From a virus (lineage: Duplodnaviria; Caudoviricetes), in the IMG/VR virus record IMGVR_UViG_3300017917_000723, positions 1,251 through 65,250 of that record: a DNA stretch of 64,000 bases; one strand, 5' to 3'. Positions 1,242 through 32,972 of the stretch are shown here, piece by piece. Under the pieces are notes generated by a model. That model was not told the origin of the DNA, ran no database searches, and saw only the letters and a program-made list of their open reading frames with translations. Both the position numbers and the translations under genes were made by a program. Position 1 is the stretch's first letter, and every line of letters starts with the position of its first letter.

Positions 1242-1270
1242 ATTATAGCTGACGAAAATATGAAAGTCAA
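1242..1270 (-). promoter_or_regulatory. Sigma70-type promoter TTGACT-N17-TATAAT
   Basis: Minus strand reads TTGACT ttcatattttcgtcagc TATAAT taaaaa ATG(1235). No Shine-Dalgarno, so probably leaderless. Confidence 0.8.
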
Positions 1271-2091
1271 CCGAATAATCTTGCCAAAGGTATACCTTGG
1301 CGAATTTCGTCAACTGTCCATTCCGTGTGGCATAATTTTAAAAACCATTCTTCTCGATCAGATAGTGTAGGGTTTTCTAAATTTTCCCATGAAATTGATA
1401 AAGGTGCTGCTAAACTAGAGGAATCGCATAAAATCGGTACTCCCTGTATAGCCGCCTGTACAGCCGGGCCGCTATTATAGTTTATAACACAGTGATAGTT
1501 ATAAAAAATATCAAAGTCATCATAGGTGTTCGGTAACCTTTGTGGTCTTTCTAATATAATGTTGGGCATCACAAAAGGAAAAGGTGACCTAGGATGTGGT
1601 CTAACTATAATTCTTCGATTAGTTTTTTCTCTTATTTTAGAAATTGTGTCCTCAACCCACTTTTTCATAGTTGGCATACCTTCCCATTGAAGACTTTCTT
1701 GGTGCTGGCATGCTATTAGAACTTCTCCGCGGCGCCTCTCTGGAGGAGGTTTAAGAAATACTCCTAATTTTTGTGGCCTGTTTGAATCAAGGTCTTTGTC
1801 GTTACCAAAAATTCCAAGACTGTTAATATGGTTTAGAGAAACACGCCACGTTTCGTTTCTTTTTAAATTACCAACTTCTATAATAATTACTGGTTTGCCA
1901 GTATTTTTGCATTCATGGTAGATTCTTCTATTTTCTCGCATACGTCCCGACCACAGAACCGACCAAATGACAGCTACATCCTCATTTTCTGAGACAGACT
2001 CATGGCCAAGTGACCTCAGTCCTTCTTCGAAAGCATCAAAGACTGGTCTACTGTTAAGGGCACCGTATTCGCGATAAAGTTTGAAGCGCAT
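1267..2091 (-). CDS. Capsule-synthesis-like (KpsS/KpsC-like) GT-B glycosyltransferase, paralog 1
   Basis: Motifs VRPHP, NYNSGPAVQAAIQGVP and REEWFLKLCHTEWTVDEIRQG are shared with five other island genes. Confidence 0.6.
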   Translation of the reverse strand: MRFKLYREYGALNSRPVFDAFEEGLRSLGHESVSENEDVAVIWSVLWSGRMRENRRIYHECKNTGKPVIIIEVGNLKRNETWRVSLNHINSLGIFGNDKDLDSNRPQKLGVFLKPPPERRRGEVLIACQHQESLQWEGMPTMKKWVEDTISKIREKTNRRIIVRPHPRSPFPFVMPNIILERPQRLPNTYDDFDIFYNYHCVINYNSGPAVQAAIQGVPILCDSSSLAAPLSISWENLENPTLSDREEWFLKLCHTEWTVDEIRQGIPLARLFG

Positions 2092-2099
2092 ATATAAAC

Positions 2100-2119
2100 T
2101 AAATAATCTACGTATTTAA
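2100..2119. promoter_or_regulatory. Overlapping divergent T4-like late promoter cores
   Basis: TAAATA on + at 2100-2105 and TAAATA on - (tattta 2113-2118) lie in the 35 bp gap between divergent genes. Confidence 0.5.
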
Positions 2120-2126
2120 TCAGATC

Positions 2127-2525
2127 ATGGACAAGTTTCAAAAAAGAGTACAAAAAATATCTAGACCTAACGAAAATGCTGTTGTGATTGGCAGCGGGTT
2201 TGGTCGGCTTGAAGATATTTTAAAAATTTTCAATACAGTATTTGTGTTAGGCGGGCCAATGCCTGAAATAAAAGCAAAAAATTTAGTATACAAAGAATCT
2301 TATCAAAATTTAAACAACATAACACTGATAAGTGCTATATTTTTTGACTTAAATGATATAGGTAAGTTGGAAGATTTTAAAAGTTTCTGGCAAAGAAACG
2401 ATTCTGTGATTATTATCGAAGGCGACGAACCTATTGGTAGAGAATTTTCTAAATCTTTGTATGATACAGGCTGGGGTTGTACTAGTTTACAAGGATTTTT
2501 TCATGTATGGGAAAAAATAAAATGA
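2127..2525 (+). CDS. Hypothetical protein, possibly a degenerate Rossmann/methyltransferase-like fold
   Basis: 132 aa ORF with a VVIGSGFG glycine motif; translationally coupled to the next gene. Confidence 0.6.
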   Translation: MDKFQKRVQKISRPNENAVVIGSGFGRLEDILKIFNTVFVLGGPMPEIKAKNLVYKESYQNLNNITLISAIFFDLNDIGKLEDFKSFWQRNDSVIIIEGDEPIGREFSKSLYDTGWGCTSLQGFFHVWEKIK

Positions 2526-3358
2526 AATATGCGGTAGTTACTACCTTTCACGAGAAAGGATTGAAGGATTACGGTCAACGAATGATTGACACATTCTGTA
2601 AAAACTGGCCAGAAGAGGTAACCTTACACATTTATCCTGAACTTTGTAATCCTGCTATCAGCAATCATAACCATGTAACCTTAAAACGTCTTGAAGAACT
2701 AGAAGATTTGATGAAATTTAAAGAAAAATGGAAAGATGTTCCGAAAGCCAACGGAGATGTCAGTGCGGACCCAGTAAGAAGTAAAAGAAAAGATGCAGGT
2801 AAGGGGTTTAAGTGGAACGCTATTAGGTTCGCTCATAAAGTTTATGCAATTTTTCATTGTGCGCAAACTACAGATGCCGATATTATCATATGGATGGATG
2901 CGGACACTGTATGTCACAGTCCTATTTCGTTAAAAGACATTGAAAGATTAATTCCTGCTGATTCCGAACTATGTTATCTTGGTAGAAAAGGAAAATATAG
3001 CGAGTGCGGACTTTACTCAATGAATTTAAGATCAGAAAATGTTAAAAATTTTCTAAAAGAATTTCAAAAATTTTACGACGATGCAGAAAACGGTATTTTT
3101 ACACTAGAGGAATGGCATGATAGTTTTGTTTTTGATGCTGTTCGTAAAAAATTTCCTCAAATGAGACAAATAGACTGGGCAGCATCATTGCAAGATCTTC
3201 GTCCTCGTCCCGGAATGAGCTCGGGCGAAGGACATCCTCTAATTAATAGCGACTGGGGCGCTTGGTTAGACCATTTAAAAGGTGGTAGAAAAAATAGAGG
3301 TCGAAGTAGTAAGGAAGATCTTAAGGTAAAACGTAACGAACCGTATTGGAACCAATGA
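2522..3358 (+). CDS. GT-A fold glycosyltransferase (nucleotide-diphospho-sugar transferase)
   Basis: IIWMDADT (DxD motif), RFAHKVYA, EWHDSFVF and DHLKG. Start moved to ATG 2522 (ATGA overlap). Confidence 0.75.
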   Translation: MKYAVVTTFHEKGLKDYGQRMIDTFCKNWPEEVTLHIYPELCNPAISNHNHVTLKRLEELEDLMKFKEKWKDVPKANGDVSADPVRSKRKDAGKGFKWNAIRFAHKVYAIFHCAQTTDADIIIWMDADTVCHSPISLKDIERLIPADSELCYLGRKGKYSECGLYSMNLRSENVKNFLKEFQKFYDDAENGIFTLEEWHDSFVFDAVRKKFPQMRQIDWAASLQDLRPRPGMSSGEGHPLINSDWGAWLDHLKGGRKNRGRSSKEDLKVKRNEPYWNQ

Positions 3359-4134
3359 AAACTCCTAATTTTATTTGTTTAGAGAACACAGGTTACGGTG
3401 CAGATGAATTTACCCGAGGCAGTGGTGGAATATTTGTTGCCGATAGAGAAGCTATGTACTCTAATACCACATTACCAATGTGTTGGGCTGGATTTTTTAA
3501 ACCTCAATGGTTAGAGATTTGTGAAAAACATTTTTTAGATTTTTATAATTTAGATAGTGCTTATTTTGGAAACAAAAAAACTAAAACAATTTTTAGACTT
3601 ACAAAAAACGGATTTCAAAATACCAACAACATCATCGATCGGCCAATAGATAGATGGGAAAAACTTAAATTAAATTTAGATAGTTTTAAACAGGGCGGAG
3701 ATATTGTTATTGTACCACCTGATAGAAAAATTTGTCATACATTAAATCTAGGATCTGTTGACGAATGGACAGACAATCTTCGTAATCAAATTAAAAACTA
3801 TTCAGGTAGAAGTATCAAAGTTCGGAATAGACCAGAACCTCGCAGCGAACGCACTACAACAAACACATTTAAAGATTTTATCAAAGATAATACACATTGT
3901 GTAATCGGATTTGCATCTAATGCATTAGTGGAAGCAGCTATGTGTGATATTCCTGTTATTTCTATTGGACGTTCTGCTACAAAAAGTTTATATTCAAATA
4001 ATTTAGAACATATAGAAGATTTAAAGCCTGCCGATGCAGATAAAAAACAGGCCTGGTTGAATCACCTATCATATTCTCAATTTGATAGGGAAGAACTATT
4101 GTCTGGTTATGCTTGGGAAGTAATTAACAATTAA
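3355..4134 (+). CDS. Capsule-synthesis-like GT-B protein, paralog 2
   Basis: DSAYFGN, SNALVEAAMCDIPV and WLNHLSYSQFDREELLSGYAW. Start at ATG 3355 (ATGA overlap). Confidence 0.6.
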   Translation: MKTPNFICLENTGYGADEFTRGSGGIFVADREAMYSNTTLPMCWAGFFKPQWLEICEKHFLDFYNLDSAYFGNKKTKTIFRLTKNGFQNTNNIIDRPIDRWEKLKLNLDSFKQGGDIVIVPPDRKICHTLNLGSVDEWTDNLRNQIKNYSGRSIKVRNRPEPRSERTTTNTFKDFIKDNTHCVIGFASNALVEAAMCDIPVISIGRSATKSLYSNNLEHIEDLKPADADKKQAWLNHLSYSQFDREELLSGYAWEVINN

Positions 4135-4841
4135 CTAGCATATCTCGGAGCATACGGTCCTGGACCTAAATATCTTTTTAAGATCTTTTTATCAACTGGA
4201 CTGTTATGCCCGGTTCTAGGTGCCCACACAAAATTTCGTTTACTTTTTATATAAACTGCTTCGTATCCGTGATCTTCCATTAATTTACAGCAGTGATCTA
4301 TATCTTCGTTTATTTCTATCATTACCCAAGGTCTTTGTGTTTCTATGATAGATTTCATACCTTTTAACACTTCTAATTCCCAGCCTTGAGTATCAATTTT
4401 TACCATATCAACTTCTGTAAGATTTTCTTCATCTAGTTTTACAACAGGAACTTTATAAGATGATTTAACTCCCTCTCGACATAATTTCCCGTCACCACAA
4501 TTTTTTCCGGCTTGATGAAATTCAGCTTCACCGGAAAAATCAGCTACAGCCTTTTCTCTCAATTCTATACCAGTAGGAATATTCATTTTAATACATTCAA
4601 TATTTTGTTTAGATGGCTCATATGACACTGTTTTCTTAAAATGTTTAGACATAGGAAGGCTCCATATTCCAACATTGGCTCCGACATCAATGAATGTTCT
4701 TTTATTAGGCAAATGATCAAGTATTGCTTGTCGATATTTGTCTTCGTATGCAGGATTTTCCATTGATTTGTCGTTTTCTAATAATCCTGTAACTCGTGTG
4801 TCGTCGTCTGGAACTAACCATCCGTTAGCTAATTGTTTCAT
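4131..4841 (-). CDS. FkbM-family SAM-dependent methyltransferase
   Basis: FIDVGANVG, SYEPS and VKIDTQGWELEVLKG are typical FkbM motifs. Confidence 0.9.
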   Translation of the reverse strand: MKQLANGWLVPDDDTRVTGLLENDKSMENPAYEDKYRQAILDHLPNKRTFIDVGANVGIWSLPMSKHFKKTVSYEPSKQNIECIKMNIPTGIELREKAVADFSGEAEFHQAGKNCGDGKLCREGVKSSYKVPVVKLDEENLTEVDMVKIDTQGWELEVLKGMKSIIETQRPWVMIEINEDIDHCCKLMEDHGYEAVYIKSKRNFVWAPRTGHNSPVDKKILKRYLGPGPYAPRYAS

Positions 4842-5437
4842 ACTGCATCCTTATTAATTATGATTGCACATTGCATTATAGTTTTTCCATTTTCGTTTTT
4901 TTCTATAATTTCTTTTACATCTATTCCTTGAGACTTTAGTTCTTGGATAAATTTTGCCACACCAGGAAATTTATTTTCGTAGGTGTCATCAAATATAATT
5001 ATCTTACTATTTTGAACTTGTTCGTAATCCCATTTAACTGTTGAATACGAATGTCCTCCATCTATATATACCATATCAAACTGTAGAGGACCTTTTAATA
5101 CTTCATGTGTCCAGCCTTTAATAATATTATAAGATTCTAATAGATCGTTTTTTACATATTTGTCACAGCGATCTTTGATTTTTTCGTAAGACGCAGATTC
5201 TTTTCCGTTGTGTTCCATTTCTCCTGTAATAGGATTTTTTGGATATTCAAATGTAGGTCGTTCTGCTAATTCAAATGCATCGTAACCTATATAATCTATT
5301 TTATATCCTAGTTCTTTAGATAGAGGAATTAAAGATTTTAAAGTTAATCCCTCGTGACAACCTATTTCGCAAAATGTTTTTGGTTTATATTTTTCTAATA
5401 AAGGTTTAAAAACCTGATTCCATTTATAATCTTTCAT
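4838..5437 (-). CDS. Class I SAM-dependent methyltransferase (Methyltransf_24-like)
   Basis: EIGCHEG, YIDGGHSY and IIFDD motifs. Confidence 0.85.
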   Translation of the reverse strand: MKDYKWNQVFKPLLEKYKPKTFCEIGCHEGLTLKSLIPLSKELGYKIDYIGYDAFELAERPTFEYPKNPITGEMEHNGKESASYEKIKDRCDKYVKNDLLESYNIIKGWTHEVLKGPLQFDMVYIDGGHSYSTVKWDYEQVQNSKIIIFDDTYENKFPGVAKFIQELKSQGIDVKEIIEKNENGKTIMQCAIIINKDAV

Positions 5438-6357
5438 ATATATTTTTTAAAAAAATCCCAAGCCTCTCCTGATCTTAATTCATCAAAATTCCAATGACAC
5501 ATAGATAATTTTTCTACCCACTGTTGTCTTTCTGGCATATTAGGATTTTCTATATCCCTTAAATTTAAATTGGCTACTGCAAGACTTTGACTGTATTCTG
5601 GTTTTGGATCTGTTAAGAAAACTGGAATCCCTTCGATTGCACTAGCTACGCTAGGAGAACTGTTATAAACCACAGTAGCCCAGGCATTAACAAAATCCTG
5701 TGTTAACAGTTTATTTTTACTTATAGAAGTATTGGGATGATTTATTTTTAGATAAGTTGAAACTTTTTTATCTCCCGGATGACTTCTTACGATTATATGT
5801 CGTGAACTATACTTTCTGATTTCACGTATTGTTCTATCTAACCATTCCATTACTGGAAGACCTCTCATGCTCCAACCACCATTTCTTTGTAGGCAAATTA
5901 AAATATGACTTCCGTTGGATCTATAAGGTTTTAGTGTAATGCCTAAATTTTTGCTAATCTTTTCCCAACGCTGTGGATCTATATCAGTGTCAAAATAAAA
6001 TCCAGTAGTTGGAAAAACTCCATCAAAACTATATCTTAGATATCTTTTAGAATTTTCCGGATCTGCGTATAAAAATAAATTACTATCGACTATTAAGCTT
6101 CTTTTACCATTACGCCGTTGTAAATCTACTGCGTCTTTTCTTAATTTTAAATGCGGTAGATTTTTACCATCGTCGTGTACAAATCCTTGAATAAGTGCTA
6201 CATCGCATTCAATAGCGTTCATGCCTCTGTGAGCTATTGCAGTGTCGCCCAATGCAGATACACCTTGACAAAAATTATCGAGGATTAGAGGTTTTTCTAA
6301 ATTAGTATTTTTAGGAGGAATTCCTCCGTAATATGCTACTGCTGTTAACTTAGACAT
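5434..6357 (-). CDS. Capsule-synthesis-like GT-B glycosyltransferase, paralog 3
   Basis: VRSHPGD, YNSSPSVASAIEGIP and RQQWVEKLSMCHWNFDELRSGEAW. Confidence 0.6.
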   Translation of the reverse strand: MSKLTAVAYYGGIPPKNTNLEKPLILDNFCQGVSALGDTAIAHRGMNAIECDVALIQGFVHDDGKNLPHLKLRKDAVDLQRRNGKRSLIVDSNLFLYADPENSKRYLRYSFDGVFPTTGFYFDTDIDPQRWEKISKNLGITLKPYRSNGSHILICLQRNGGWSMRGLPVMEWLDRTIREIRKYSSRHIIVRSHPGDKKVSTYLKINHPNTSISKNKLLTQDFVNAWATVVYNSSPSVASAIEGIPVFLTDPKPEYSQSLAVANLNLRDIENPNMPERQQWVEKLSMCHWNFDELRSGEAWDFFKKYI

Positions 6358-7432
6358 GATATTTTTTAACTATGGTATAAGCAGTTCCGTTTACAAGTTC
6401 ATCAAATGTAAATTGACTATAACTTAATATCGATAACCAATTAGATAGAGATCCCCTATAAAGATTGTTTATATCCGATAATTGATTTCTAGCCACGCTA
6501 TTTGATATATGTTTGTCTAGAGTAATTACCGGAATGCCAGCCCATATAGATTCTGTAGCTGCATTAGAATTGATACTTACAACACAGTAATAGTCTTCGT
6601 CTAACAGATGTTTATATAACGGAGCTCGTTTTTTCTTAGGAGCCTTTTCTCTAAATACGATTTTTTTATCTGTATATTTTCTTAACTCTTCTTCTACAGA
6701 TTTTTTCCATTGAGATATTTCAACGTGGAAAATAGAAGCGGCAAATTCTCCCGGTTCTATAATTAAAATTTTATCTCCGCCTGTGCGCCATTGTGCCGGA
6801 AAGGTTTCAAACATTCCTAGACGATCTACCGGAGCTTCAAAATTTTTATTAAAATGTAGATGGTTTCTTACTAGACGATGCCATGTTTTGTGTGTACCTA
6901 AAAAATTTGTGTACCCGCTATCTATAAACCAAAAAGGTAACTTATCGTCTATTTTTTTAGTTAAAAAATTTTCATTGCCTACTGTATTTCTAATTAATAC
7001 ATCTTCTTTAATGTCTGAATATTTTTTTCTACGACAAAATTCTCCGTTAGGATCTATCTGAAGTCCTACACTTTTACAAAAATATTCAACTTTACTGTTT
7101 TTATAATTTTCAAATATAAATTCTTCGCCAAATCGATTAATAAAATATTCTAGATGAGTTCTAACATTTTTAATGTAATGATTTCTTAATAGAGAAATTT
7201 CACTTTTAACAGTGTCGACATAAGTTTTTAAATCTTGTTCTACAGCTTTATATACCTTGTCACGAACTTTTTCAATATTCAGATCTTTACCTTTACCTTT
7301 TCTATCCAACACCCAGCCTACTGCATCGTTAGTATTTGTTAAAGGAACTTTTATTTTTGATACGTGCTCTTTTATATCTATTAATTCTGCTAGATAATTA
7401 GAAACTTCTTTGTCGTTTAATAAAATTTTCAT
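6350..7432 (-). CDS. Capsule-synthesis-like GT-B protein, paralog 4, with N-terminal extension
   Basis: FIDSGY, WHRLVRN, INSNAATESIWAGIP and LSYSQFTFDELVNGTAY. Confidence 0.6.
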   Translation of the reverse strand: MKILLNDKEVSNYLAELIDIKEHVSKIKVPLTNTNDAVGWVLDRKGKGKDLNIEKVRDKVYKAVEQDLKTYVDTVKSEISLLRNHYIKNVRTHLEYFINRFGEEFIFENYKNSKVEYFCKSVGLQIDPNGEFCRRKKYSDIKEDVLIRNTVGNENFLTKKIDDKLPFWFIDSGYTNFLGTHKTWHRLVRNHLHFNKNFEAPVDRLGMFETFPAQWRTGGDKILIIEPGEFAASIFHVEISQWKKSVEEELRKYTDKKIVFREKAPKKKRAPLYKHLLDEDYYCVVSINSNAATESIWAGIPVITLDKHISNSVARNQLSDINNLYRGSLSNWLSILSYSQFTFDELVNGTAYTIVKKYHV

Positions 7433-8214
7433 GGATTATACTTCTTTAAAATTTTCCAAGCTGTTCCGTTTTCCATTTCTTGTCCGGTAAATTGACTATA
7501 AGCAAGCCCTCTGCAATGTTGTTGAACAAGATCTGCATCAGGATAATACGGATTTGAAATTTGTGTTAGATCTGTTGATGCTAACGGTGATGCTGCACAC
7601 GGTGATGACACAAACGAAGGTATACCATACGCAATAGATTCCATTGCAGCAATACTATTAAAGGCAACGGTTGCAAAAACACCACTATCGAAAGCATCGT
7701 AGATTGTATAAACCGTTCCTCGATAACTTCTAGATCCTTTTTCTCTTATTTCTATGGCCATGTCTGTGTTTTGTTTAATTGTTTCTAGTGTATTCTTTAC
7801 CCAGTCGTCGTAGTTTATTCCGTAAAACACACAAGATTTTCTATTAGGTAAAACAACTAGAATTTTATTTCCGTTCTTTTTCCATCCATGCCATTTTAAT
7901 CTAGGATCACCTTTAACTAGACTTTCCCATCTGTCTGCAGGATAGTTCCCAATTGATGTATTTTGTAATTGATTTTTTACAATTCGATGCCAGATCTTTT
8001 TTCCGGAAGGATTTCCGTTGCTTATAAAATTACCAAAATATCCAGTATCCATGTAGAAAAAATCACGATTTTCTTTCCATAGCTGATGAATACTTTTTCT
8101 TTTAACTATACCTCTAAAAACAGTTGGCTTGGTTAGATCATTTGAGTCTAATGAAACTTCGCCGTTAGTTCCTTTAACAAATGCCTGTTCCCAACCTAGT
8201 TTTTCTTCATCCAT
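7429..8214 (-). CDS. Capsule-synthesis-like GT-B protein, paralog 5
   Basis: YMDTGYFGN, WHRIVKN, FNSIAAMESIAYGIP and LAYSQFTGQEMENGTAW. Confidence 0.6.
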   Translation of the reverse strand: MDEEKLGWEQAFVKGTNGEVSLDSNDLTKPTVFRGIVKRKSIHQLWKENRDFFYMDTGYFGNFISNGNPSGKKIWHRIVKNQLQNTSIGNYPADRWESLVKGDPRLKWHGWKKNGNKILVVLPNRKSCVFYGINYDDWVKNTLETIKQNTDMAIEIREKGSRSYRGTVYTIYDAFDSGVFATVAFNSIAAMESIAYGIPSFVSSPCAASPLASTDLTQISNPYYPDADLVQQHCRGLAYSQFTGQEMENGTAWKILKKYNP

Positions 8215-9010
8215 AAAATTTTTCCAATAATTCTTTTGCTTTTCCAGATTTTAATTCGCTAATATGAAATTGTCCGTATGATAAATGACAAGCCCATGCA
8301 TATAATTTATCTTTATCTGGATAGTAAGGTTCGTTTATTTTAGTGAGGTCTTGAAGTGACACAGGACTCGCAGCGTTTGTGGGTGCTAAGGTAAATGCCG
8401 GTATACCGTGGAACACACTTTCTATGGCAGCAACACTATTAAATGTTACTAGAGCAAATACGTCATCATCTAAGGCTTCTTGTAATGTATTATGAACAAT
8501 CCTATCGGTTCTATTTTTTACACGTTCTCTAACAACAACAGGCCTGTCGGTATATTGTCTTATAGTTTCTACGGTAGTTTTTATCCAGTCTTGTTGTGTT
8601 GTTCCGTAAAATTTACAAGGTTTTTCGTCGGGTGCCGCAATTAAAATCTTACGACCGTCTTTTTTCCAAGGTTGAAATTTTTTATTAAAATGTTTAAATC
8701 TGTCATCTGGTCTTGAAATTATTTCGTTTCCGTGTTGAAGATCATTTTTTACTATGCGATGCCAATATTTCCAACCGTTAGGATTTGTATTAGTTGCCTC
8801 GTTACCAAAATATCCGGTATCCATGAAATAAAATATTCGACCGTCTTCCCAACATCTATGTATAATTTTTTTCTTTAATATCCCTCTTAGTATAATTGGG
8901 TCTTTACTATCTTCGTAATTAAAGTTGTCAGTGTTTACCACAGGACTATTGCAGCCTTTAGCAAACATATTAATATACGGATCTTCCCCGTCTTTACTAA
9001 GAAAAATCAT
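8207..9010 (-). CDS. Capsule-synthesis-like GT-B protein, paralog 6
   Basis: FMDTGYFGN, WHRIVKN, FNSVAAIESVFHGIP and LSYGQFHISELKSGKA. Start at ATG 9010 (ATGA overlap). Confidence 0.6.
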   Translation of the reverse strand: MIFLSKDGEDPYINMFAKGCNSPVVNTDNFNYEDSKDPIILRGILKKKIIHRCWEDGRIFYFMDTGYFGNEATNTNPNGWKYWHRIVKNDLQHGNEIISRPDDRFKHFNKKFQPWKKDGRKILIAAPDEKPCKFYGTTQQDWIKTTVETIRQYTDRPVVVRERVKNRTDRIVHNTLQEALDDDVFALVTFNSVAAIESVFHGIPAFTLAPTNAASPVSLQDLTKINEPYYPDKDKLYAWACHLSYGQFHISELKSGKAKELLEKFYG

Positions 9011-9687
9011 AGACCGTGTTGTAGACAATAGTCGGTATAAATTCTTTCTCTATGCCATTCGTCTCCCATAGGAGTTGTTGCAAAATCATGAAAGCTAGGA
9101 GTACCAAGGGTATAGTGCAATAGTTTAGCATCTTGATTTGATCCAAACTCGTCGGGAAGCCAATTCCATTCTATAGGTAAAGAACCTACATCATTTTCAT
9201 CAATGCACCAAGTAAATCTGTGTAATTGTGCTCCAGTAGATTTTTGTATAAATTCAGGAGTTAATATTTTATTTTTCGGATGACCACAATTCCAAAGGAT
9301 GACACTAGACCAATTTTTGCAAGGATAGTCTTCGTTTTTAGCTCCGAGATATTTTGTAGTCATCCTAGTCTTATAATTATGCTTAACTACCATGACAGCG
9401 TGTTTATCATCTCGCATGTTCCATAGCTTAACAATATCGTCTCTTAACAGCATATCTCCGTCCATGAATATCGCCCATCCTTGATAATTCATTAGATGAG
9501 GAACAAGAAATCTGCTATAGATAAAATGATTGCTACCGTCATTGTGCATTTCTTTATATCCGTTTAAGATATTTAATGCTAACGGAGCCACGGTAACCGG
9601 TTGACTAGAATGTCTAATAATACTATTTGTGCATACGTGGTATGCTACTGCTTCTCTAGGGTCATATCCTATAAAAATTGGAATCAT
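9007..9687 (-). CDS. GT-A glycosyltransferase (GT8-like, widespread phage family)
   Basis: IFIGYDPRE, FIYSRFLVP, FMDGDM (DxD), KNWSS, EWNWL and LHYTLGTP. Confidence 0.85.
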   Translation of the reverse strand: MIPIFIGYDPREAVAYHVCTNSIIRHSSQPVTVAPLALNILNGYKEMHNDGSNHFIYSRFLVPHLMNYQGWAIFMDGDMLLRDDIVKLWNMRDDKHAVMVVKHNYKTRMTTKYLGAKNEDYPCKNWSSVILWNCGHPKNKILTPEFIQKSTGAQLHRFTWCIDENDVGSLPIEWNWLPDEFGSNQDAKLLHYTLGTPSFHDFATTPMGDEWHRERIYTDYCLQHGL

Positions 9688-10442
9688 TTTCTTTCTATAT
9701 CCTCTTCTTCACATTTTTCACCGTATTGGATTTCTACTATTTTACATGGAACATCATACGGATTGGTAAGTTGATGCCATTCGCCTACAGGAACCCGATA
9801 TTCTAAATGTTCTTTTAACATCGTAGGAGGCAAGTTATAGCCGCCCTCTGTCGTAGAGTTTACCACACAAGCACCGTGAGTTACTAACCAGTATTCTGCG
9901 CGATGATTATGTTTTTGCATACTGAGACTTTTGCCAGGTTCAACGGTTAATTCTTTAACTTTACAACCCGAAACTTCGTGCAATACTCTATAGTATCCCC
10001 ACTGCCGTTCGGTCTTAGGTGCCTTCCATTCTTCTAATATCCACGAACTAGAATTCATTTTGTTTTCACCGCCGACTCCAAAAACAAATTGTAGATTATC
10101 ATCCACAATATCCATTTCTGGAATATTTGACGATGTGCGGTCGCCGCCGTTGGCAAAAATAATTGTATCAGTGGGATAATTTAATCGAACTTTTCGAATA
10201 GCATCTTTAGCTGTTCCGTCAGAGTCGTCAAATTGAACGGTCCAATTAACTCCTCTAATATTTTTAACCACAGCTAATCGATCTTCCCATTTCATAAATG
10301 GACGACCTTTTTTGCGTGTGAGCCATTCGTCGCTGTTAAGACCAACGATGAGTTGATCTCCTAACTTTTTTGCCTCTTCAAAATATTTGATATGGCCAGA
10401 ATGTAAGGGGTCAAACCCGCCCGTAATTAAGACTATTTTCAT
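9684..10442 (-). CDS. Cytidylyltransferase-like (TagD/RfaE family) domain fused to a mannose-6-phosphate isomerase-type cupin
   Basis: TGGFDPLHSGH (HxGH), GLNSD and FANGGDR; C-terminal RQWGYY...SMQKHNHRAEYW...EIQYG...EEDIER cupin. Confidence 0.9.
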   Translation of the reverse strand: MKIVLITGGFDPLHSGHIKYFEEAKKLGDQLIVGLNSDEWLTRKKGRPFMKWEDRLAVVKNIRGVNWTVQFDDSDGTAKDAIRKVRLNYPTDTIIFANGGDRTSSNIPEMDIVDDNLQFVFGVGGENKMNSSSWILEEWKAPKTERQWGYYRVLHEVSGCKVKELTVEPGKSLSMQKHNHRAEYWLVTHGACVVNSTTEGGYNLPPTMLKEHLEYRVPVGEWHQLTNPYDVPCKIVEIQYGEKCEEEDIERK

Positions 10443-10447
10443 AGTCT

Positions 10448-10455
10448 TATTTATA
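10448..10455 (-). promoter_or_regulatory. T4-type late promoter TATAAATA heading the glycan operon
   Basis: Exact T4 late consensus 5 nt upstream of ATG 10442. Confidence 0.75.
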
Positions 10456-10474
10456 TGAGCAGTTTATTGGAAAA

Positions 10475-10930
10475 TTAAAGAGTGGCGTCTTCTAAGCCTG
10501 CTACTCGCAGTTTAACGATGTTGCTTAGATGCCATTGTTTTTGATCTAGGGCTTTGATAATGCCTAGCCATTTGTTTCTTAGTAATGCAAAGTCATTGAT
10601 AATCTTTTCAAAATCAACAACGTCAGCTTCACCTTCTACGAACTTTTCACAGTCCCTAGAAGATAAAGCTCGTTGATAATTTTCAAGATATTTGCGGAAG
10701 TATTGACTACGAATTCGACGCAACTCGATGTTTAGATATTCTAGAATTGCTTCGATTTCCTGAAGTTGGTTAAATCGGTTTTCAACAATGCCAGGCATAC
10801 TGGCGGATGCTTTCTCTATGTTTCCCGCTATGCGAGCATCTAACTTTGCCGCCTGTAATTCAGCTTCGTAGTATGCCACAGCATTTGGAATCTGCGAGAT
10901 ATCCTTTGAAACCTGATCATACCAATTCAT
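10475..10930 (-). CDS. uvsY: Recombination mediator UvsY-like
   Basis: Helical 151 aa protein (KYLENYQRALSSRD.EKFVEGEADV, IKALDQKQW) adjacent to uvsX. Confidence 0.75.
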   Translation of the reverse strand: MNWYDQVSKDISQIPNAVAYYEAELQAAKLDARIAGNIEKASASMPGIVENRFNQLQEIEAILEYLNIELRRIRSQYFRKYLENYQRALSSRDCEKFVEGEADVVDFEKIINDFALLRNKWLGIIKALDQKQWHLSNIVKLRVAGLEDATL

Positions 10931-11170
10931 TTAATCCTCATCTTGCCCGTAGTCATAATCTTCTTCGTCTTCGATTTCCTCACCGTCGATTGCGTATTCT
11001 ATAGCATCATCTAGGTAAGGGTCAACTCCCAATAAATGGTCCAAGGTAGATTCTTTGATACCATAATCCATTAAGGTGTTAACAAAGTCAGTGGCAACGT
11101 TTGCACGTTGCTTTTCTGGAATATGTTCTACTACCACTGACCACAAATCTGCAATTAAATCTTCTTTCAT
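10931..11170 (-). CDS. Small acidic hypothetical protein
   Basis: 79 aa with a D/E-rich tail, coupled between uvsX and uvsY. Confidence 0.75.
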   Translation of the reverse strand: MKEDLIADLWSVVVEHIPEKQRANVATDFVNTLMDYGIKESTLDHLLGVDPYLDDAIEYAIDGEEIEDEEDYDYGQDED

Positions 11171-12246
11171 TATGCGCTCTCCGTTTCAGGCTCAACTTTA
11201 GTAGTTATCTCGGAAACGGAATTTTCGCCGTGTTTTGAAATGTCTGCCATGATAGCATCTAAGCCACCATTCTCGTTTCTTTCCCACGCCTTGCGGAACT
11301 GCTTAATGATTTCGCCGTCTTTAGTTGTGTAAACAAGGCTATTTCCTTCTTTCTTTAGAAGACCCTTTTCTTCTGCCAGGTCTACCAGTCCACTATATGG
11401 ATTCATACCTGTTTCATAAGGAATCTTAACCTGTACACTTTCAAAAGGTTTTGCATAGCGAGTTTTCATAATCTTACAGGCAGCGCGAATACCTTTGACT
11501 TCGGAGATCTTATTACCATCTTCGTCTTCTTTCAACTTCAATTTGCGCATCGCTACAACAATCGAAGAAGCATAGATAAATCCTTGACCGCCACTGATCT
11601 TGTCATCAGGATCAAACATATCTTGTGAAGCGTATGTGTGATTAGTTGCGACTAGACCGATGTTTAGTGAACCAAACATATTAACACAGTTGCGAACCAA
11701 TGCTGTCAAGGCCTTAGGCTTACGGCCCATATCACCTTTCAAATCACCTGCTTCGAACTGATTAACGTCAGTTGGGGTTAACAACATACCTAGTGAATCT
11801 AATACAAACAACACCTTTGGACGAGTGTCTTCTGGCATGGCCTTGTACTCAGCAACAAATTCTGTAATAGTTTTTGCTACATCATCGATCATAGCCATAT
11901 TAAGTTTTAACAACTTATCTTCGCTAGTATCAACACCCAATGCCTTAAGCCAATCTTCGTCGAGTGCGTTTTCTGTATCAACTAGGATGGGATAAATTCC
12001 TTGTGCCTGTGCTGCCTTAATAAGATTGCCAGAACAAATATACGATTTACCTGCACCACTTTCGCCTGCAAACACAGTTACCTTACCCAGAGGAACGCCT
12101 TTGTGGAAGTCGCCACTAATTAGATAATTTAATGCGTAATTACCTGTGCTAACCCAATCTGTTGGATCATTGAAGCCAATTGACAAACCTTCGATAGACT
12201 TTGTAATTGACTTTCTAAATTTAGAAATATCAAATGCTTTAGCCAT
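11170..12246 (-). CDS. uvsX: RecA-like recombinase UvsX
   Basis: Walker A GESGAGKS, DTENA, LDSLG, DMGRKPK, TNHTY and SGGQGFIYASS. Confidence 0.95.
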   Translation of the reverse strand: MAKAFDISKFRKSITKSIEGLSIGFNDPTDWVSTGNYALNYLISGDFHKGVPLGKVTVFAGESGAGKSYICSGNLIKAAQAQGIYPILVDTENALDEDWLKALGVDTSEDKLLKLNMAMIDDVAKTITEFVAEYKAMPEDTRPKVLFVLDSLGMLLTPTDVNQFEAGDLKGDMGRKPKALTALVRNCVNMFGSLNIGLVATNHTYASQDMFDPDDKISGGQGFIYASSIVVAMRKLKLKEDEDGNKISEVKGIRAACKIMKTRYAKPFESVQVKIPYETGMNPYSGLVDLAEEKGLLKKEGNSLVYTTKDGEIIKQFRKAWERNENGGLDAIMADISKHGENSVSEITTKVEPETESA

Positions 12247-12437
12247 TAGTTGTCAACCTCCATCGTATTCCATTCTTTTACAACAGCGATCATTTCTTCT
12301 TCTGAATTACAGAGAATCTTCGCTGTCTTCCATTCGCTGTCTTCATCACGACCGCCTACTTCGACCATAAAGCCGTTGTCATAACGGTTAAGAGTGATCG
12401 ACTCGTTTACTTTTGCTAATTTAGATAATTTTGCCAT
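12246..12437 (-). CDS. Small hypothetical protein (63 aa)
   Basis: Start at ATG 12437 behind a GGAG SD; coupled to uvsX. Confidence 0.7.
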   Translation of the reverse strand: MAKLSKLAKVNESITLNRYDNGFMVEVGGRDEDSEWKTAKILCNSEEEMIAVVKEWNTMEVDN

Positions 12438-12488: not shown

Positions 12489-13493
12489 TTATTGCTTTTG
12501 ACGATTGCGAATCATGGCCAAGATATCTTGAGCACGTGATGCGCCTTCGCTGCCTGCTGCCGGAGCTTCTGCTTTTGGAGCAGGTGCTGCCTTTTGAGCA
12601 GGCTCATCTTCCCAAGGAAGTTCTTCTTCACTAGATGCAGGAGCAGCAGCCTTTGGAGCAGCCGCAGTTCTAGCTACTGGATCACCAGTTGCAGAACCCA
12701 TACCTGCTGGTTTGAAATATTGACCCCAACGGTCCATGTCGTAGGCTTCGCCGTCGACTGATGCTTCAAACATTTCTTTCATTACCTTAAGCTCAACATC
12801 AGTTGGCTTCTTAGGAAGGAATGCTGAAAGATCAAATAGACCATATTGATCAATAGCTGCCTTTTCAGCGTCAGATAGTGTACGCTCACGACGGCTCCAC
12901 TTAGATGTAGAGTAGTCTGCGAAACCACCTTTGCTAGTCTTGGCGATTTTGAAGTCAACACCTCGGAGGTAATCAGTTGGAAGTTCTTCCAACTCTGGGT
13001 CCATTAGCGCAGATTTAATCGTTTGGAAAATCTGAGGACCAATGATGAATCTACGAATCGGATTTTCGGGTGTGTTTTCTTCTTTAAGGGCATCTTCTAC
13101 TACAAAGCCTTGGAAGATGTAAGAACGCTTCTTCCAATACTTACGACCCATGTCTTCCAATGACTTGTCTTTGAACCAACCACGGACTTCGCTTAGGATA
13201 GGACAAACTGATCCGTCATTGTACATTTCAACACAGGGAACCTGTACTTGAACTGGACGTGAATCTGTTTCACCTTTAATACCTGCGAATGGGAGTTTGA
13301 TCATCGCACGTTCTACCCAGAAGAATGTGTTGTTTGCATTGCCATCTGGAAGAAAACGAACTACGGCTTCTTTGCCTTCTTGCATATTCCAATGCGGATA
13401 AATCGCATTGTCGCCGCCTGATGATGATGTAGAATTTGAACCTTTATTTTGTGCTTCTTGAAGTTTCGCACGAATTTCTGCTAATGTTGCCAT
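12489..13493 (-). CDS. gp32: Single-stranded DNA-binding protein, T4 gp32 family
   Basis: VRFLPD, CVEMY...CPI, RKYWKKRSY, GVDFKIAKTSKGGFADYSTSKW and an Ala/Pro-rich linker. Confidence 0.92.
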   Translation of the reverse strand: MATLAEIRAKLQEAQNKGSNSTSSSGGDNAIYPHWNMQEGKEAVVRFLPDGNANNTFFWVERAMIKLPFAGIKGETDSRPVQVQVPCVEMYNDGSVCPILSEVRGWFKDKSLEDMGRKYWKKRSYIFQGFVVEDALKEENTPENPIRRFIIGPQIFQTIKSALMDPELEELPTDYLRGVDFKIAKTSKGGFADYSTSKWSRRERTLSDAEKAAIDQYGLFDLSAFLPKKPTDVELKVMKEMFEASVDGEAYDMDRWGQYFKPAGMGSATGDPVARTAAAPKAAAPASSEEELPWEDEPAQKAAPAPKAEAPAAGSEGASRAQDILAMIRNRQKQ

Positions 13494-16023: not shown

Positions 16024-16034
16024 AAGTGTATTTA

Positions 16035-17621: not shown

Positions 17622-17626
17622 AACTT

Positions 17627-17632
17627 TATTTA
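17627..17632 (-). promoter_or_regulatory. Late promoter core TAAATA, 5 nt before terminase ATG
   Basis: GTAAATA AAGTT ATG. Confidence 0.65.
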
Positions 17633-18864: not shown

Positions 18865-19443
18865 TTATTTTCCTTTGCGTGGATCTGGATTGTCTGTCTT
18901 ACTCATAGGGGACACAGATCCAGCTTTATCTGCTTTTTGTTTACTAATTTTGTATTCTGCATTGAAACCATCTTTAGTACGTTGCTTAGATGCTTTCTGT
19001 AAATCTTTTAAGAAACCTTTGTTGAAATCGTCACCGAAGTAATCTTTGTGTTTGACCTTGTCGTTATAGGGCTCTTCTAATACTGCCTTACCGCTAGGTT
19101 CCATATCGGCTGTATTGTGATCTAATTCTTCTGCATCTCCGCCGTTTCTAACACGGAAATGTGATTCAGGAACAAACCACTTGATATGTTCTTGTAATTC
19201 AGGTGCTGTAATTGGATACTCGCAAACAACTTCAAATGTTGTGACAGGCAAGTAAGTTAATTCTGGAAAATCCAGAGGAACAGATTGAATAGGAGTCGAA
19301 CTCTTTTCAACTATAGTAGGATTAGCCTTGCCAATACAGTCTTTTAGATCTTCGATAAAATTCTTAGGTACGTCGCCTGCGATTTTTAATCTAAAAGGGT
19401 ATGACTTTGTGTTTTCGGCCAGATATTCTTTAAAGGTCTTCAT
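18865..19443 (-). CDS. Candidate internal head protein with capsid-targeting-like N-terminus
   Basis: Starts MKTFKEYLAE, similar to the T4 internal protein targeting peptide MKTYQEFIAE. TAAATA-N5-ATG upstream. Confidence 0.6.
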   Translation of the reverse strand: MKTFKEYLAENTKSYPFRLKIAGDVPKNFIEDLKDCIGKANPTIVEKSSTPIQSVPLDFPELTYLPVTTFEVVCEYPITAPELQEHIKWFVPESHFRVRNGGDAEELDHNTADMEPSGKAVLEEPYNDKVKHKDYFGDDFNKGFLKDLQKASKQRTKDGFNAEYKISKQKADKAGSVSPMSKTDNPDPRKGK

Positions 19444-19451
19444 AGTAATAT

Positions 19452-19934
19452 TTATGCTTTTCCGCTTAATTTTTTCAGTAGCTCGTTGCGGTCAGTAATC
19501 ACATAACCCTGACCGTTAATCACATTATTTGGATCGTTGCCTGCATCATTATCAATTTTTAACTTCTTTAGCTGTAGATCCACTGACTTTAACTTCTTTT
19601 CGATCTTATTGGTTTTGGCAGTAATAGCATTGCCCATCATAGAACTGGCCACTTCAAAAATGCGGCTAGCATAGCGTACTTCTACGTTCATGCCTAGATC
19701 CATTAGATCGTCATAGGCCTGCTCTGCTTTTTTGGCTAGATTATCTAGTTCCTGCTCGTCTAGATTTTCTAGTTCCTGTATTTTGGGCAAAGTTTGAACT
19801 ATTTTTTCTACTGCCTGATATTGCTCGTCAAGGCTGGTTACTTCTTCGTGTGTAGGAGCAGGCGGTTTTTCAATCTCAACTTTTTTAGGTTGTGATGATT
19901 CTAGATTAAAAAGTTCTTCAAGTTTTTTGGTCAT
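19452..19934 (-). CDS. gp16: Terminase small subunit-like protein
   Basis: Helical core AYDDLMDLGMNVE.RYASRIFEVA and a C-terminal DRNELLKKL resembling T4-like TerS. Confidence 0.6.
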   Translation of the reverse strand: MTKKLEELFNLESSQPKKVEIEKPPAPTHEEVTSLDEQYQAVEKIVQTLPKIQELENLDEQELDNLAKKAEQAYDDLMDLGMNVEVRYASRIFEVASSMMGNAITAKTNKIEKKLKSVDLQLKKLKIDNDAGNDPNNVINGQGYVITDRNELLKKLSGKA

Positions 19935-21825: not shown

Positions 21826-21842
21826 ACAAATATTTATGCCAC

Positions 21843-27106: not shown

Positions 27107-27126
27107 AATATCCTCCAATTAAGGAC

Positions 27127-27911: not shown

Positions 27912-27916
27912 ACTAC

Positions 27917-32969: not shown

Positions 32970-32972
32970 TAT

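What the first reader, a model, noticed from the sequence alone, without database searches (positions are those of the whole stretch)
1267..10455. Late-expressed glycan-building island with six paralogous capsule-type transferases: candidate virion glycosylation system
Seen: 12 tightly coupled genes in visibly AT-rich DNA. They comprise six paralogs sharing NS..A.....G(I/V)P and L(S/A)YSQF..E...G.A-type motifs, two DxD glycosyltransferases, two methyltransferases, a nucleotidyltransferase-cupin fusion and one hypothetical protein. The island is headed by an exact TATAAATA. Known: TATAAATA is the T4 late (gp55) promoter; KpsS/KpsC-type GT-B enzymes build capsule linkers; FkbM-type enzymes O-methylate glycans. 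Inference: late timing argues for assembly of a methylated oligosaccharide on the virion rather than early host serotype conversion or DNA protection. No flippase, polymerase or membrane protein is present, which fits a soluble target.
Basis: partly seen in the sequence, partly recalled or inferred. Interest (0 to 1): 0.8.

Follow-up and report, generated by a model that had tools for sequence, protein, structure and literature searches.

The report
Late-signalled sugar-building island, giant phage
An uncultured giant T4-like phage carries twelve adjacent genes for soluble sugar-chain-building enzymes, six of them copies of an unnamed virus-specific enzyme family, behind a late-gene signal; they probably build a variable, methylated sugar chain, perhaps for the virus particle itself, but the target is unproven.

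Summary
Window 1267-10442 carries 12 tightly packed ORFs in AT-rich DNA. They are six paralogs, two GT-A-type transferases, two methyltransferases, a nucleotidyltransferase-cupin fusion and one small ORF.

The family is very large (5081 cluster representatives) and, as far as sampled, viral.

The TATAAATA is real and not a chance hit. ATAAATA is depleted (7 seen, 29 expected). TAAATA-N5-ATG marks 8 ORF starts, including terminase and tail genes. The site is kept in 76 of 79 relatives, and gp55 homologs occur in 4 of 4 large relatives.

The island sits at the same place in 30 of 30 spanning relatives, with 2 to 6 paralogs.

Late transcription is plausible. The target (virion, host envelope or DNA) is untested. 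This scan noted a similar island earlier in another genome (e1-5375797).

The parts
10448..10455 (-). TATAAATA, a late-promoter-like box 5 nt before the ATG of the first island gene
   Evidence: ATAAATA-N5-ATG is kept at this place in 76 of 79 relatives.
9684..10442 (-). Fusion of a cytidylyltransferase-like nucleotidyltransferase (residues 1-~115) with a type II phosphomannose-isomerase cupin (residues ~144-251)
   Evidence: PF01467 at 59.1 bits and PF01050 at 83.1 bits. The best sub-threshold NCBIfam hit is RfaE domain II. The nearest solved chains are cytidylyltransferases.
9007..9687 (-). GT8-family (GT-A, DxD) glycosyltransferase
   Evidence: PF01501 at 30.5 bits, above the 24.3 cut-off. 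phrog_28018 at 4e-37. DGD at residue 76.
8207..9028 (-). KpsC-fold paralog P6 (P...R-E-R-V type); a conserved core member
   Evidence: 2682 homologs, all without a name.
7429..8214 (-). KpsC-fold paralog P5 (P...R-E-K-G type); this is the modelled protein
6350..7432 (-). KpsC-fold paralog P4, with an N-terminal extension of about 100 residues
5434..6357 (-). KpsC-fold paralog P3, Q...RSHP subtype; a conserved core member
   Evidence: All three listed top Atlas clusters are viral; a rank-21 cluster carries PF05159 in 18% of members.
4838..5437 (-). Class I SAM methyltransferase (Methyltransf_24)
   Evidence: PF13578 at 36.8 bits, above the 26.3 cut-off.
4131..4841 (-). FkbM-family methyltransferase
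   Evidence: PF05050 at 62 bits. TIGR01444 at 94.2 bits.
3346..4134 (+). KpsC-fold paralog P2 (P...R-N-R-P type)
2522..3358 (+). GT-A-fold DxD glycosyltransferase, nearest to the GT6 retaining alpha-Gal/GalNAc transferases. The start was moved from 2507 to 2522.
   Evidence: AF2 pLDDT 89.1. Foldseek E 2e-9 to alpha-1,3-galactosyltransferase. Start set from relatives. DAD motif.
2127..2525 (+). Small ORF, possibly a minimal class I methyltransferase-like fold (lead only)
   Evidence: Atlas structure search gives TM 0.77 to viral FkbM-domain clusters. No Pfam or PHROG hit.
2092..2126 (.). Divergent control region. CTAAATA (+) and TTAAATA (-) each lie 21 nt before their ATG, around an AAATACGTATTT palindrome.
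1267..2091 (-). KpsC-fold paralog P1, Q...RPHP subtype

Best explanation
What it is. The island is a cytoplasmic, membrane-independent glycan assembly line of an uncultured T4-like jumbo phage. The lineage's genome is about 350 kb.

Proposed steps:
- The nucleotidyltransferase-cupin fusion supplies an activated donor. The cupin would interconvert fructose-6-P and mannose-6-P. The HIGH-type nucleotidyltransferase would make an NDP- or CDP-linked mannose/heptose-type or polyol-phosphate donor.
- Two GT-A enzymes (one GT8, one GT6-like) and up to six KpsC-fold transferases add residues one after another.
- Two or three methyltransferases cap hydroxyl groups.

How the KpsC-fold paralogs probably work. 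They keep the nucleotide-binding frame: the Arg and mostly the Pro of (K/R)XHP, an NS phosphate-binding helix cap and a ribose-binding Glu. They have lost the Asp nucleophile. They are therefore unlikely to use the double-displacement Kdo chemistry of KpsC. Two of them (Q...RxHP) may still take a CMP-activated acidic sugar. Four (P...Rx[K/R]x) probably take another nucleotide-linked donor.

Timing and target. At least the eight-gene block starts at a gp55-type late promoter, so the product is made while virions assemble. The most likely acceptor is one or more virion proteins, which would give a strain-variable methylated glycan coat.

Status of each step:
- Shown: gene content, folds, motif states, conservation of the promoter-like motif, and fixed position with variable content among relatives.
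- Inferred: donor identity, order of action, timing and acceptor.
For: Enzyme set.

Fold of the paralogs:

Motifs in an 84-sequence family alignment:
- R157 in 80 of 84 and P160 in 61 of 84.
- S187 in 80 of 84, E192 in 57 of 84, E246 in 83 of 84, and D/E56 in 84 of 84.
- H159 in 16 of 84, always together with Q123.

Fusions of the family to GT8 (2) and to GT1 (1) were found among 25 long relatives scanned.

Late signal:
- ATAAATA occurs 7 times against 29.2 +/- 5.8 expected, all on the main coding strand.
- TAAATA-N5-ATG occurs 8 times against 2.0 expected, and 0 of 100 shuffles reach 8.
- All 8 sites sit at ORF starts. These include the large terminase, a tail-tube-like gene, a head-tail adaptor and the island head.
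- The site before the island is kept in 76 of 79 relatives, or 45 of 48 distinct sequences, with information peaking at -12 to -6.
- T4 gp55 homologs occur in 4 of 4 large related records at E about 1e-6.

Position and variability: the island lies between uvsY and the same 396-aa gene in 30 of 30 spanning relatives, with 2-6 family members.

No predicted membrane segment.

Parallel in an unrelated phage: in Caulobacter phage CcrColossus a family member sits in a transferase cluster between a tail gene and the lysis cassette.
Against: - No experiment or expression data exist for this phage.
- No terminator-like site on the minus strand separates gp32, uvsX and uvsY from the island. A sigma-70-like site lies before gp32. 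Early or middle read-through is therefore possible, and the island could be expressed throughout infection.
- A second conserved ATAAT element at -25 to -21 is unexplained and could be another promoter.
- ATAAATA-N5-ATG could in principle be a translation signal rather than a promoter.
- Published readings of similar gene sets in pelagimyophages and cyanomyophages favour modification of the host surface (PMC7029224 and PMC12801897, passages read).
- KpsC and WbbB are soluble enzymes that work on lipid-linked acceptors, so the absence of membrane proteins does not point to a protein target.
- The mapping of motif positions rests on motif order, secondary structure and spacing. It does not rest on a residue-level superposition.
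Confidence: 0.4

Rival explanations
1. The glycan is built on a host envelope glycolipid: LPS core or O-antigen, a capsule linker, or an undecaprenyl-linked intermediate. This would happen at the cytoplasmic face of the membrane, and host transporters would export the product. It would change or cap the host surface, either to block superinfection or to stop progeny from sticking to cell debris.
For: - The nearest structural relatives, KpsC and WbbB, act on lipid-linked acceptors, and WbbB caps O-antigen chains (abstracts and passages of PMC10148158 and PMC9587256).
- The literature interprets such clusters this way (PMC7029224; PMC12801897).
- GT8 is common in LPS synthesis, as stated in PMC7029224.
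- Variable content at a fixed locus resembles O-antigen loci.
Against: - The late-type promoter is conserved at the island head. A surface change that begins shortly before lysis has little time to act.
- There is no initiating phosphoglycosyl transferase, flippase, ligase or transporter in the island.
- Close homologs were found almost only in viral sequence. One 2-kb MAG contig was the only hit in 185,579 genomes for the one paralog tried, with a method that finds close relatives only.
Confidence: 0.3
2. The enzymes glycosylate phage DNA bases, giving a hypermodified genome that resists restriction.
For: - The island adjoins recombination and replication genes (uvsY, uvsX, gp32).
- Phage glycosyltransferases that decorate DNA with multi-sugar glycans are known (bioRxiv 10.1101/2023.12.21.572611, search listing only).
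Against: - No thymidylate-synthase-type hydroxymethylase (PF00303) was found in 0 of 5 related records. These are all fragments, 19-67% complete.
- A late promoter fits poorly with a modification that is needed from the start of replication.
- Up to eight transferases plus methyltransferases is far more than known DNA sugar modifications use.
Confidence: 0.05
3. The KpsC-fold paralogs are not sugar transferases. They would be phosphotransferases that build a polyol-phosphate or sugar-phosphate (teichoic-acid-like) chain from CDP-activated donors made by the island's cytidylyltransferase-like enzyme. The acceptor could be either of those named above.
For: - The nucleotidyltransferase domain's nearest solved relatives make CDP-ethanolamine, CDP-glycerol and CDP-choline.
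- The paralogs keep the cytosine-contacting Arg and Pro of (K/R)XHP, but in most the His is replaced by Lys or Arg. This would suit a diphosphate.
Against: - The best NCBIfam hit of the nucleotidyltransferase is the ADP-heptose synthase domain.
- The fused cupin points to mannose-type sugar phosphates.
- TagF-type enzymes did not appear among the listed structural matches. That absence is not decisive.
Confidence: 0.1

Closest known systems
Retaining beta-Kdo glycosyltransferases KpsC (GT107), WbbB (GT99) and KrkA (GT140)
   Same: - The Arg of (K/R)XHP is kept in all six paralogs, and the full motif in two.
- An acidic residue ends an N-domain strand, a Ser caps the phosphate-binding helix, and a C-terminal extension is present.
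   Different: - There is no sequence-level match to PF05159 or to any solved chain.
- The QXXXD nucleophile is absent at the expected site in 0 of 6 paralogs, and only 1 of 84 family members has it.
- His is replaced by Lys or Arg in 68 of 84.
- The proteins are shorter (about 260 aa), virus-encoded and present in arrays of 2-6.
- No CMP-Kdo synthetase (PF02348) was found in the 5 partial records.
Virus-encoded virion glycosylation: mycobacteriophage capsid and tail-tube glycosylation (Freeman et al. 2023, seen only as a citation in PMC12619734 and PMC12801897) and chlorovirus or mimivirus self-glycosylation (recalled)
   Same: Soluble virus-encoded transferases, with methyltransferases in some cases, and no dedicated membrane machinery. 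Four structurally similar 'capsule polysaccharide biosynthesis' proteins occur in the giant Tetraselmis virus 1.
   Different: No glycan has been shown on any virion of this lineage. The enzyme families differ, and the host and acceptor are unknown.
'LPS' or cell-wall gene clusters of large cyanomyophages and pelagimyophages (P-SSM2, S-SSM7, S-SCSM2R, pelagimyophage host-recognition clusters)
   Same: Marine or freshwater T4-like phages with many small transferases, an rfaE/TagD-like nucleotidyltransferase and AT-rich variable islands (PMC3037559, PMC7029224 and PMC12801897). Pelagibacter phage Mosig carries two family members beside methyl-, sulfo- and glycosyltransferases.
   Different: Those clusters were annotated by sequence only. 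The KpsC-fold family was left as 'hypothetical' or generic 'glycosyltransferase'. No late promoter was found in pelagimyophages (PMC7029224). Here the promoter-like site is explicit and conserved.
T4 late promoter (TATAAATA read by gp55)
   Same: The 8-bp box, or its ATAAATA core, lies before structural genes. gp55 homologs occur in the lineage. T4's box lies about one helical turn before the transcription start (PMC2988020).
   Different: Here a fixed 5-nt gap to the ATG at 8 ORF starts implies leaderless or near-leaderless late mRNAs. I found this in no paper; the one search for it was.

Membership tests
Retaining Kdo glycosyltransferases (GT99/GT107/GT140; KpsC, WbbB, KrkA) | Modified GT-B global architecture | tested here: met
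   [not shown]
Retaining Kdo glycosyltransferases (GT99/GT107/GT140; KpsC, WbbB, KrkA) | Invariant QXXXD motif after the first strand of the C-terminal domain (Asp nucleophile, Gln binds the Kdo carboxylate), as defined in PMC12887879 and PMC10148158 | tested here: not met
   At the aligned site the six paralogs read QHQES, QRNGG, PNRKS, PDEKP, PDRKI and PGEFA. Asp at +4 occurs in 0 of 6. In the 84-row alignment Q occurs in 16 and QxxxD in 1. The site was assigned from motif order and secondary structure, not from a residue-level superposition.
Retaining Kdo glycosyltransferases (GT99/GT107/GT140; KpsC, WbbB, KrkA) | (K/R)XHP CMP-binding motif | tested here: inconclusive
   Present in 2 of 6 paralogs (RPHP in 1267-2091, RSHP in 5434-6357). 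The others read RERV, REKG, REKA and RNRP. In the family, H occurs in 16 of 84, K in 56 and R in 12.
Retaining Kdo glycosyltransferases (GT99/GT107/GT140; KpsC, WbbB, KrkA) | Sequence match to Pfam Capsule_synth (PF05159) | tested here: not met
   No hit for any paralog up to E 10. No six-frame hit in the record. 4 of 84 family members match weakly, best E 0.011.
Retaining Kdo glycosyltransferases (GT99/GT107/GT140; KpsC, WbbB, KrkA) | Transfer of Kdo from CMP-Kdo with retention, through a covalent adduct | not testable with these tools
   This needs enzyme assays. No CMP-Kdo synthetase family (PF02348) was found in 0 of 5 partial records.
GT8 glycosyltransferases | Pfam PF01501 above the gathering score, plus a DxD motif | tested here: met
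   9007-9687 scores 30.5 bits against 24.3. DGD at residue 76.
GT-A fold DxD glycosyltransferase (GT2 or GT6-like) | GT-A fold with DxD; family-level sequence match | tested here: inconclusive
   For 2522-3358 the fold is met: Foldseek E 2e-9, probability 1.0, TM about 0.41 to GT6 alpha-1,3-galactosyltransferase, with DAD present. Pfam GT2 scores only 17.1 bits against 23.3, so no family is assigned.
FkbM-family methyltransferases | PF05050 / TIGR01444 above cut-off | tested here: met
   4131-4841 scores 62 bits against 22.7 and 94.2 against 37.7. The substrate is not testable.
Cytidylyltransferase-like nucleotidyltransferase fused to a type II PMI cupin | PF01467 and PF01050 above cut-off; HxGH motif; cupin metal ligands | tested here: met
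   59.1 bits against 21 and 83.1 against 23.6. HSGH and the HxH...E and H cupin motifs are visible in the translation. No equivalog-level NCBIfam model is reached: RfaE domain II scores 80.2 against 181.5, so the substrate stays open.
T4-type (gp55) late promoter | TATAAATA-type box placed before late genes; gp55 in the phage; a late transcript 5' end | tested here: inconclusive
   The box and its enrichment at ORF starts are met. Conservation is met. gp55 homologs occur in 4 of 4 large relatives, but this record holds only 65 kb. The transcript 5' end and timing could not be tested.

The most novel reading that the evidence does not exclude
An abundant lineage of aquatic T4-like jumbo phages coats its own virions with a strain-variable, methylated oligosaccharide. 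The glycan is made entirely in the cytoplasm by viral enzymes. The core of the machinery is a large, virus-specific, so far unnamed branch of the KpsC/WbbB fold. This branch has given up the Asp-adduct Kdo chemistry for another nucleotide-linked donor, which the island's own nucleotidyltransferase-cupin supplies. This would be a bacterial-virus counterpart of chlorovirus and mimivirus self-glycosylation, driven from leaderless gp55-type late transcripts.
Probability: 0.3. Interest if true: 0.8.

Novelty: new variant of a known kind. Interest (0 to 1): 0.6.

Why it matters
Glycan gene clusters in large marine and freshwater phages have been known for twenty years, yet no function has been established for them. 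One comparative study even asked whether they are 'stuffer DNA' (PMC3037559).

This report adds three things:
- It gives the commonest unnamed genes of one such cluster a fold and a testable active-site hypothesis.
- It shows that the cluster is a fixed but variable feature of a widespread phage lineage.
- It ties the cluster to a conserved late-type start signal.

If the product sits on the virion, it bears on how phages evade recognition, adsorb or survive in water. If it sits on the host, it is a late-acting surface-editing system.

The family (5081 cluster representatives) would also add a fourth, mechanistically different branch to the retaining Kdo transferase fold. The KpsC authors describe that fold as having no other global relatives.

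Tried and rejected
- Megablast of the island against 50,697 phage records gave no match.
- Profile searches of the six paralogs (A1), of 84 family members (A2) and of the Q/HP subtype (A4) against PDB sequences gave only chance hits. The best were E 0.15, designed TIM barrels at 5e-4 through a repeat artefact, and 0.7.
- Pfam up to E 10 and NCBIfam up to E 0.1 gave nothing usable for the paralogs. A six-frame search of the record with PF05159 gave none.
- The phage DSL-LC06 protein annotated 'KpsC' and the Mosig homologs also have no Pfam match, so they gave no sequence bridge to Capsule_synth.
I used single proteins instead.
Its apparent restriction to viruses rests on one paralog and a close-relative method and on Atlas taxa.
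- RNA evidence: no RNA holder was listed for 4131-12300.
- The 'moraphage' jumbo-phage paper (PMC12619734; abstract, outline and passages read) describes a different lineage without T4-type machinery and was set aside.
- The preprint 10.64898/2026.10.24.761521 mentions glycosyltransferases only generically (passages).
- FkbM and GT8 have no solved sequence relatives at E 0.01.
- Complex prediction was not used, because no specific pair of binding partners is claimed.

Full report
CONTEXT

The window is almost the whole of a 65,250-base IMG/VR virus record that CheckV rates 19% complete. It is a T4-type myovirus. It encodes:
- UvsY (10475-10930), UvsX (11170-12246) and gp32 (12489-13493).
- The large terminase, a head-closure protein, tail tube, a 1173-aa sheath, a head-tail adaptor, two giant fibre proteins and the end of a major head protein.

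UvsX is 62-70% identical to those of 340-490 kb jumbo phages: Vibrio phage 2.275.O, Xanthomonas XbC2, Pectobacterium CBB, Cronobacter GAP32 and Agrobacterium Atu_ph07. Related records reach 238 kb at 67% estimated completeness. One homolog lies on a 357-kb contig. The lineage's genome is therefore about 350 kb.

THE OBSERVATION

Twelve ORFs fill 1267-10442. Eight lie on the minus strand from 10442 down to 4131, and each overlaps the next by 4-22 nt. Three lie on the plus strand (2127-4134) and end 4 nt inside the last minus-strand gene. One (1267-2091, minus) diverges from the plus-strand trio at a 35-nt spacer. GC is 0.32-0.35 over 2-9 kb, against 0.39-0.44 next door.

Identified genes:
- Pfam identifies a GT8 transferase, an FkbM methyltransferase, a Methyltransf_24 methyltransferase and a cytidylyltransferase-like domain fused to a type II phosphomannose-isomerase cupin. 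All score above their gathering thresholds.
- The second 'DxD' protein scores below the Pfam cut-off. Relatives show that its start is at 2522. Its AlphaFold model (pLDDT 89.1) has a GT-A fold closest to the GT6 retaining alpha-Gal/GalNAc transferases (Foldseek E 2e-9).
- The remaining small ORF (2127-2525) resembles minimal class I methyltransferases in the ESM Atlas structure search (TM 0.77). This is a lead only.

None of the twelve proteins has a hydrophobic stretch of membrane-helix strength.

The six paralogs align along their whole length at 20-26% identity with 13 invariant columns. Its two motifs are each one residue off in spacing.

WHAT THE PARALOGS ARE

No sequence library names them. 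I tried Pfam, PHROGs, NCBIfam and PDB sequence profiles.

The family is very large:
- 2682 proteins at 90% clustering match one paralog.
- 5081 cluster representatives at 50% identity match the six-paralog profile, 892 of them below 1e-30.
- Of 25 longer relatives scanned, two are fused to GT8 and one to a GT1 domain.
- 22 of 84 members weakly touch DUF6716, a putative glycosyltransferase family, and 4 of 84 touch Capsule_synth.

A model of 7429-8214 built on 84 sequences is confident (pLDDT 94.9, pTM 0.91).
- Foldseek's best 15 PDB rows are KpsC, KrkA and WbbB.
- The KpsC authors remark that these enzymes have no other global structural relatives (PMC10148158, passage). That makes the match specific.

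IS IT A MEMBER?

The defining features are given in PMC12887879 and PMC10148158 (passages). They are an invariant QXXXD, whose Asp forms the covalent Kdo adduct and whose Gln holds the Kdo carboxylate, and a (K/R)XHP motif on CMP. Both lie in the C-terminal domain.

In the six paralogs the loop after the first strand of that domain reads QHQES, QRNGG, PNRKS, PDEKP, PDRKI and PGEFA. There is no Asp at +4 in any of them. The second motif reads RPHP, RSHP, RERV, REKG, REKA and RNRP.

Across 84 family members two subtypes separate cleanly:
- 16 have Q together with R-x-H-P. Of these, 14 read QxxxS, one QxxxG and one QxxxD.
- 68 have, mostly, P together with R-x-(K/R)-P.

Other positions are kept: the Arg (80 of 84), a helix-capping Ser (80 of 84), a Glu five residues later (57 of 84), an acidic residue ending an N-domain strand (84 of 84), R95 (82 of 84) and a C-terminal Glu (83 of 84).

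The proteins therefore look like working nucleotide-dependent transferases on the KpsC scaffold that cannot use KpsC's double-displacement chemistry. I file them as a new branch that works on the same fold, not as members of GT99, GT107 or GT140. One caveat applies: I assigned the positions from motif order, predicted secondary structure and spacing, not from a coordinate superposition.

THE DONOR

The nucleotidyltransferase domain's closest solved relatives are ethanolamine-phosphate, glycerol-3-phosphate and choline-phosphate cytidylyltransferases and an RfaE-like protein. Its best NCBIfam hit, below cut-off, is the ADP-heptose synthase domain. The cupin keeps the His/His/Glu/His metal motif (read).

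A mannose/heptose-type or polyol-phosphate donor linked to a nucleotide is the likeliest product. Its identity is open. No CMP-Kdo/CMP-sialate synthetase family was found in five partial records of the lineage.

THE LATE SIGNAL

TATAAATA occurs twice in the window.

Its core ATAAATA occurs 7 times against 29.2 +/- 5.8 expected, every time on the main coding strand.

TAAATA followed by exactly five bases and ATG occurs 8 times against 2.0 expected, and 0 of 100 shuffles reach 8. All eight coincide with ORF starts:
- the island head;
- the large terminase;
- a virion structural protein (start revised to 16023);
- a gene at 18865-19443 in the structural module;
- a tail-tube-like gene;
- the head-tail adaptor;
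- a small gene beside the capsid gene;
- an HNH-like ORF at 26168.

By contrast the dNMP kinase gene and the 396-aa gene after the island carry near-consensus sigma-70 boxes.

In 79 related viral loci the first island gene is preceded by ATAAATA-N5-ATG in 76. That is 45 of 48 distinct sequences, preceded by G in 35, T in 9 and A in 1. Information peaks at -12 to -6 while the flanks drift.

T4 gp55 finds a homolog in 4 of 4 large related records at E about 1e-6.

T4's box lies about one helical turn before the start site (PMC2988020, passage). The 5-nt gap therefore implies leaderless or nearly leaderless late mRNAs. That is an inference.

Points that weaken 'late only':
- No terminator-like site separates the island from gp32, uvsX and uvsY.
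- A second conserved ATAAT element at -25 to -21 is unexplained.

The other four genes have C/TTAAATA 21 nt upstream, like several fibre and sheath genes with 19-33 nt leaders.

RELATIVES

The search for related loci confirmed 281 related viral stretches and kept 80 loci.
- In all 35 loci of 12 kb or more the order is gp32-uvsX-uvsY-island.
- In the 30 loci that span from uvsY to the 396-aa gene the island is always there, 6.9-12.3 kb long. It holds 2 (4 loci), 3 (2), 4 (3), 5 (16) or 6 (5) family members.
- Both methyltransferases are present in 4 loci, one in 5 and none in 21. Several loci are near-identical, so these are not independent counts.
- The constant core is the nucleotidyltransferase-cupin, GT8, one paralog of each subtype and the GT6-like enzyme.

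Outside the lineage, family members occur in:
- Pelagibacter phage Mosig, beside methyl-, sulfo- and glycosyltransferases;
- the 30-kb phage DSL-LC06, beside FkbM, heptosyl- and sialyltransferase-like genes;
- Caulobacter giant siphophages, where the gene lies in a transferase cluster between a tail gene and the lysis cassette.

Structurally similar 'capsule polysaccharide biosynthesis' proteins occur four times in Tetraselmis virus 1. The only hit in 185,579 prokaryote genomes, for the one paralog tried, was a 2-kb MAG contig.

TARGET

Nothing computed here identifies the acceptor.

For the virion:
- the conserved late-type start;
- the late-module position of the family in an unrelated phage;
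- the absence of any initiating, flipping or exporting component;
- the variable-content pattern expected of an exposed structure.

For the host envelope:
- the biology of the nearest structural relatives;
- the prevailing interpretation in the literature (PMC7029224 and PMC12801897, passages; PMC3037559, passages).

For DNA: only the neighbourhood. No hydroxymethylase family was found in five partial records.

My estimates are virion 0.4, host envelope 0.3, a phosphotransfer variant 0.1 and DNA 0.05, with the remainder unknown.

NOVELTY

I found no paper describing KpsC-fold paralog arrays in phages or leaderless-geometry gp55 promoters. The searches were made, in the held library only.

This scan has already noted a similar island in another uncultured freshwater giant phage (e1-5375797). 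Its reading agrees with mine, and I did not examine that genome.

The kind of object, a phage glycan island, is known. The new elements are the enzyme branch, its motif state, the conserved late start and the fixed-locus variability.

Noticed in passing
window 10440-10453, 16021-16034, 17619-17632, 19441-19454, 21823-21836, 26157-26170, 27909-27922, 63436-63449: TAAATA, exactly 5 nt, then ATG marks eight ORF starts (8 seen, 2.0 expected). With a T4-type box about one helical turn before the start site, this implies leaderless or near-leaderless late mRNAs. ATAAATA is four-fold depleted elsewhere in the window.
   Followed up: partly
window 31246-37070 (+): A second AT-rich island (GC 0.30-0.35) lies inside the structural region. 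It holds a tryptophan-halogenase-like gene, four 2OG-Fe(II) oxygenase-like genes and a NodU/Nol-type carbamoyltransferase. The last could also modify a glycan.
   Followed up: no
relatives L002-L081, positions -25 to -21 before the first island gene; window about 10463-10467: A second conserved element (consensus ATAAT, 1.1-1.7 bits) lies 8-9 nt upstream of the late box. Its function is unknown; it may be another promoter element.
   Followed up: no
window 2092-2126: The divergent spacer between 1267-2091 and 2127-2525 holds the perfect palindrome AAATACGTATTT. This places C/TTAAATA 21 nt before each of the two ATGs.
   Followed up: no
window 26168-26506 (+): A 112-aa Cys-rich HNH-like ORF lies between the sheath and dNMP kinase genes. 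It starts at a TAAATA-N5-ATG site on the opposite strand and overlaps the end of the kinase ORF.
   Followed up: no
window 1242-1270 (-) and about 27120-27150 (-): Near-consensus sigma-70 promoters (TTGACT-17-TATAAT and TTGACA...TATAAT) lie before the 396-aa gene that follows the island and before the dNMP kinase gene. Early-type and late-type signals are therefore clearly distinct in this phage.
   Followed up: partly
window 14146-16038, 63169-63459, 2507-3358: The mechanical ORF starts are probably too far upstream. Late-box geometry or relatives place the starts at 16023, 63438 and 2522.
   Followed up: partly
L088 (phage DSL-LC06, 30 kb): A small freshwater phage devotes a large share of its genome to a similar set: a heptosyltransferase-like gene, FkbM, two GTs, a family member annotated 'KpsC' and a sialyltransferase-like gene.
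   Followed up: partly
L087 (2-kb contig of a Methanobacteriota MAG): The only prokaryote-genome hit to paralog 5434-6357 (54% identity) is a 2-kb contig. It is probably phage DNA binned into the MAG.
   Followed up: no
window 59053-59060 (-): The second exact TATAAATA lies about 90 nt before the next ORF and is followed by a 7-bp hairpin (CAAGAAA...TTTCTTG). This would be a late transcript with a structured leader.
   Followed up: no
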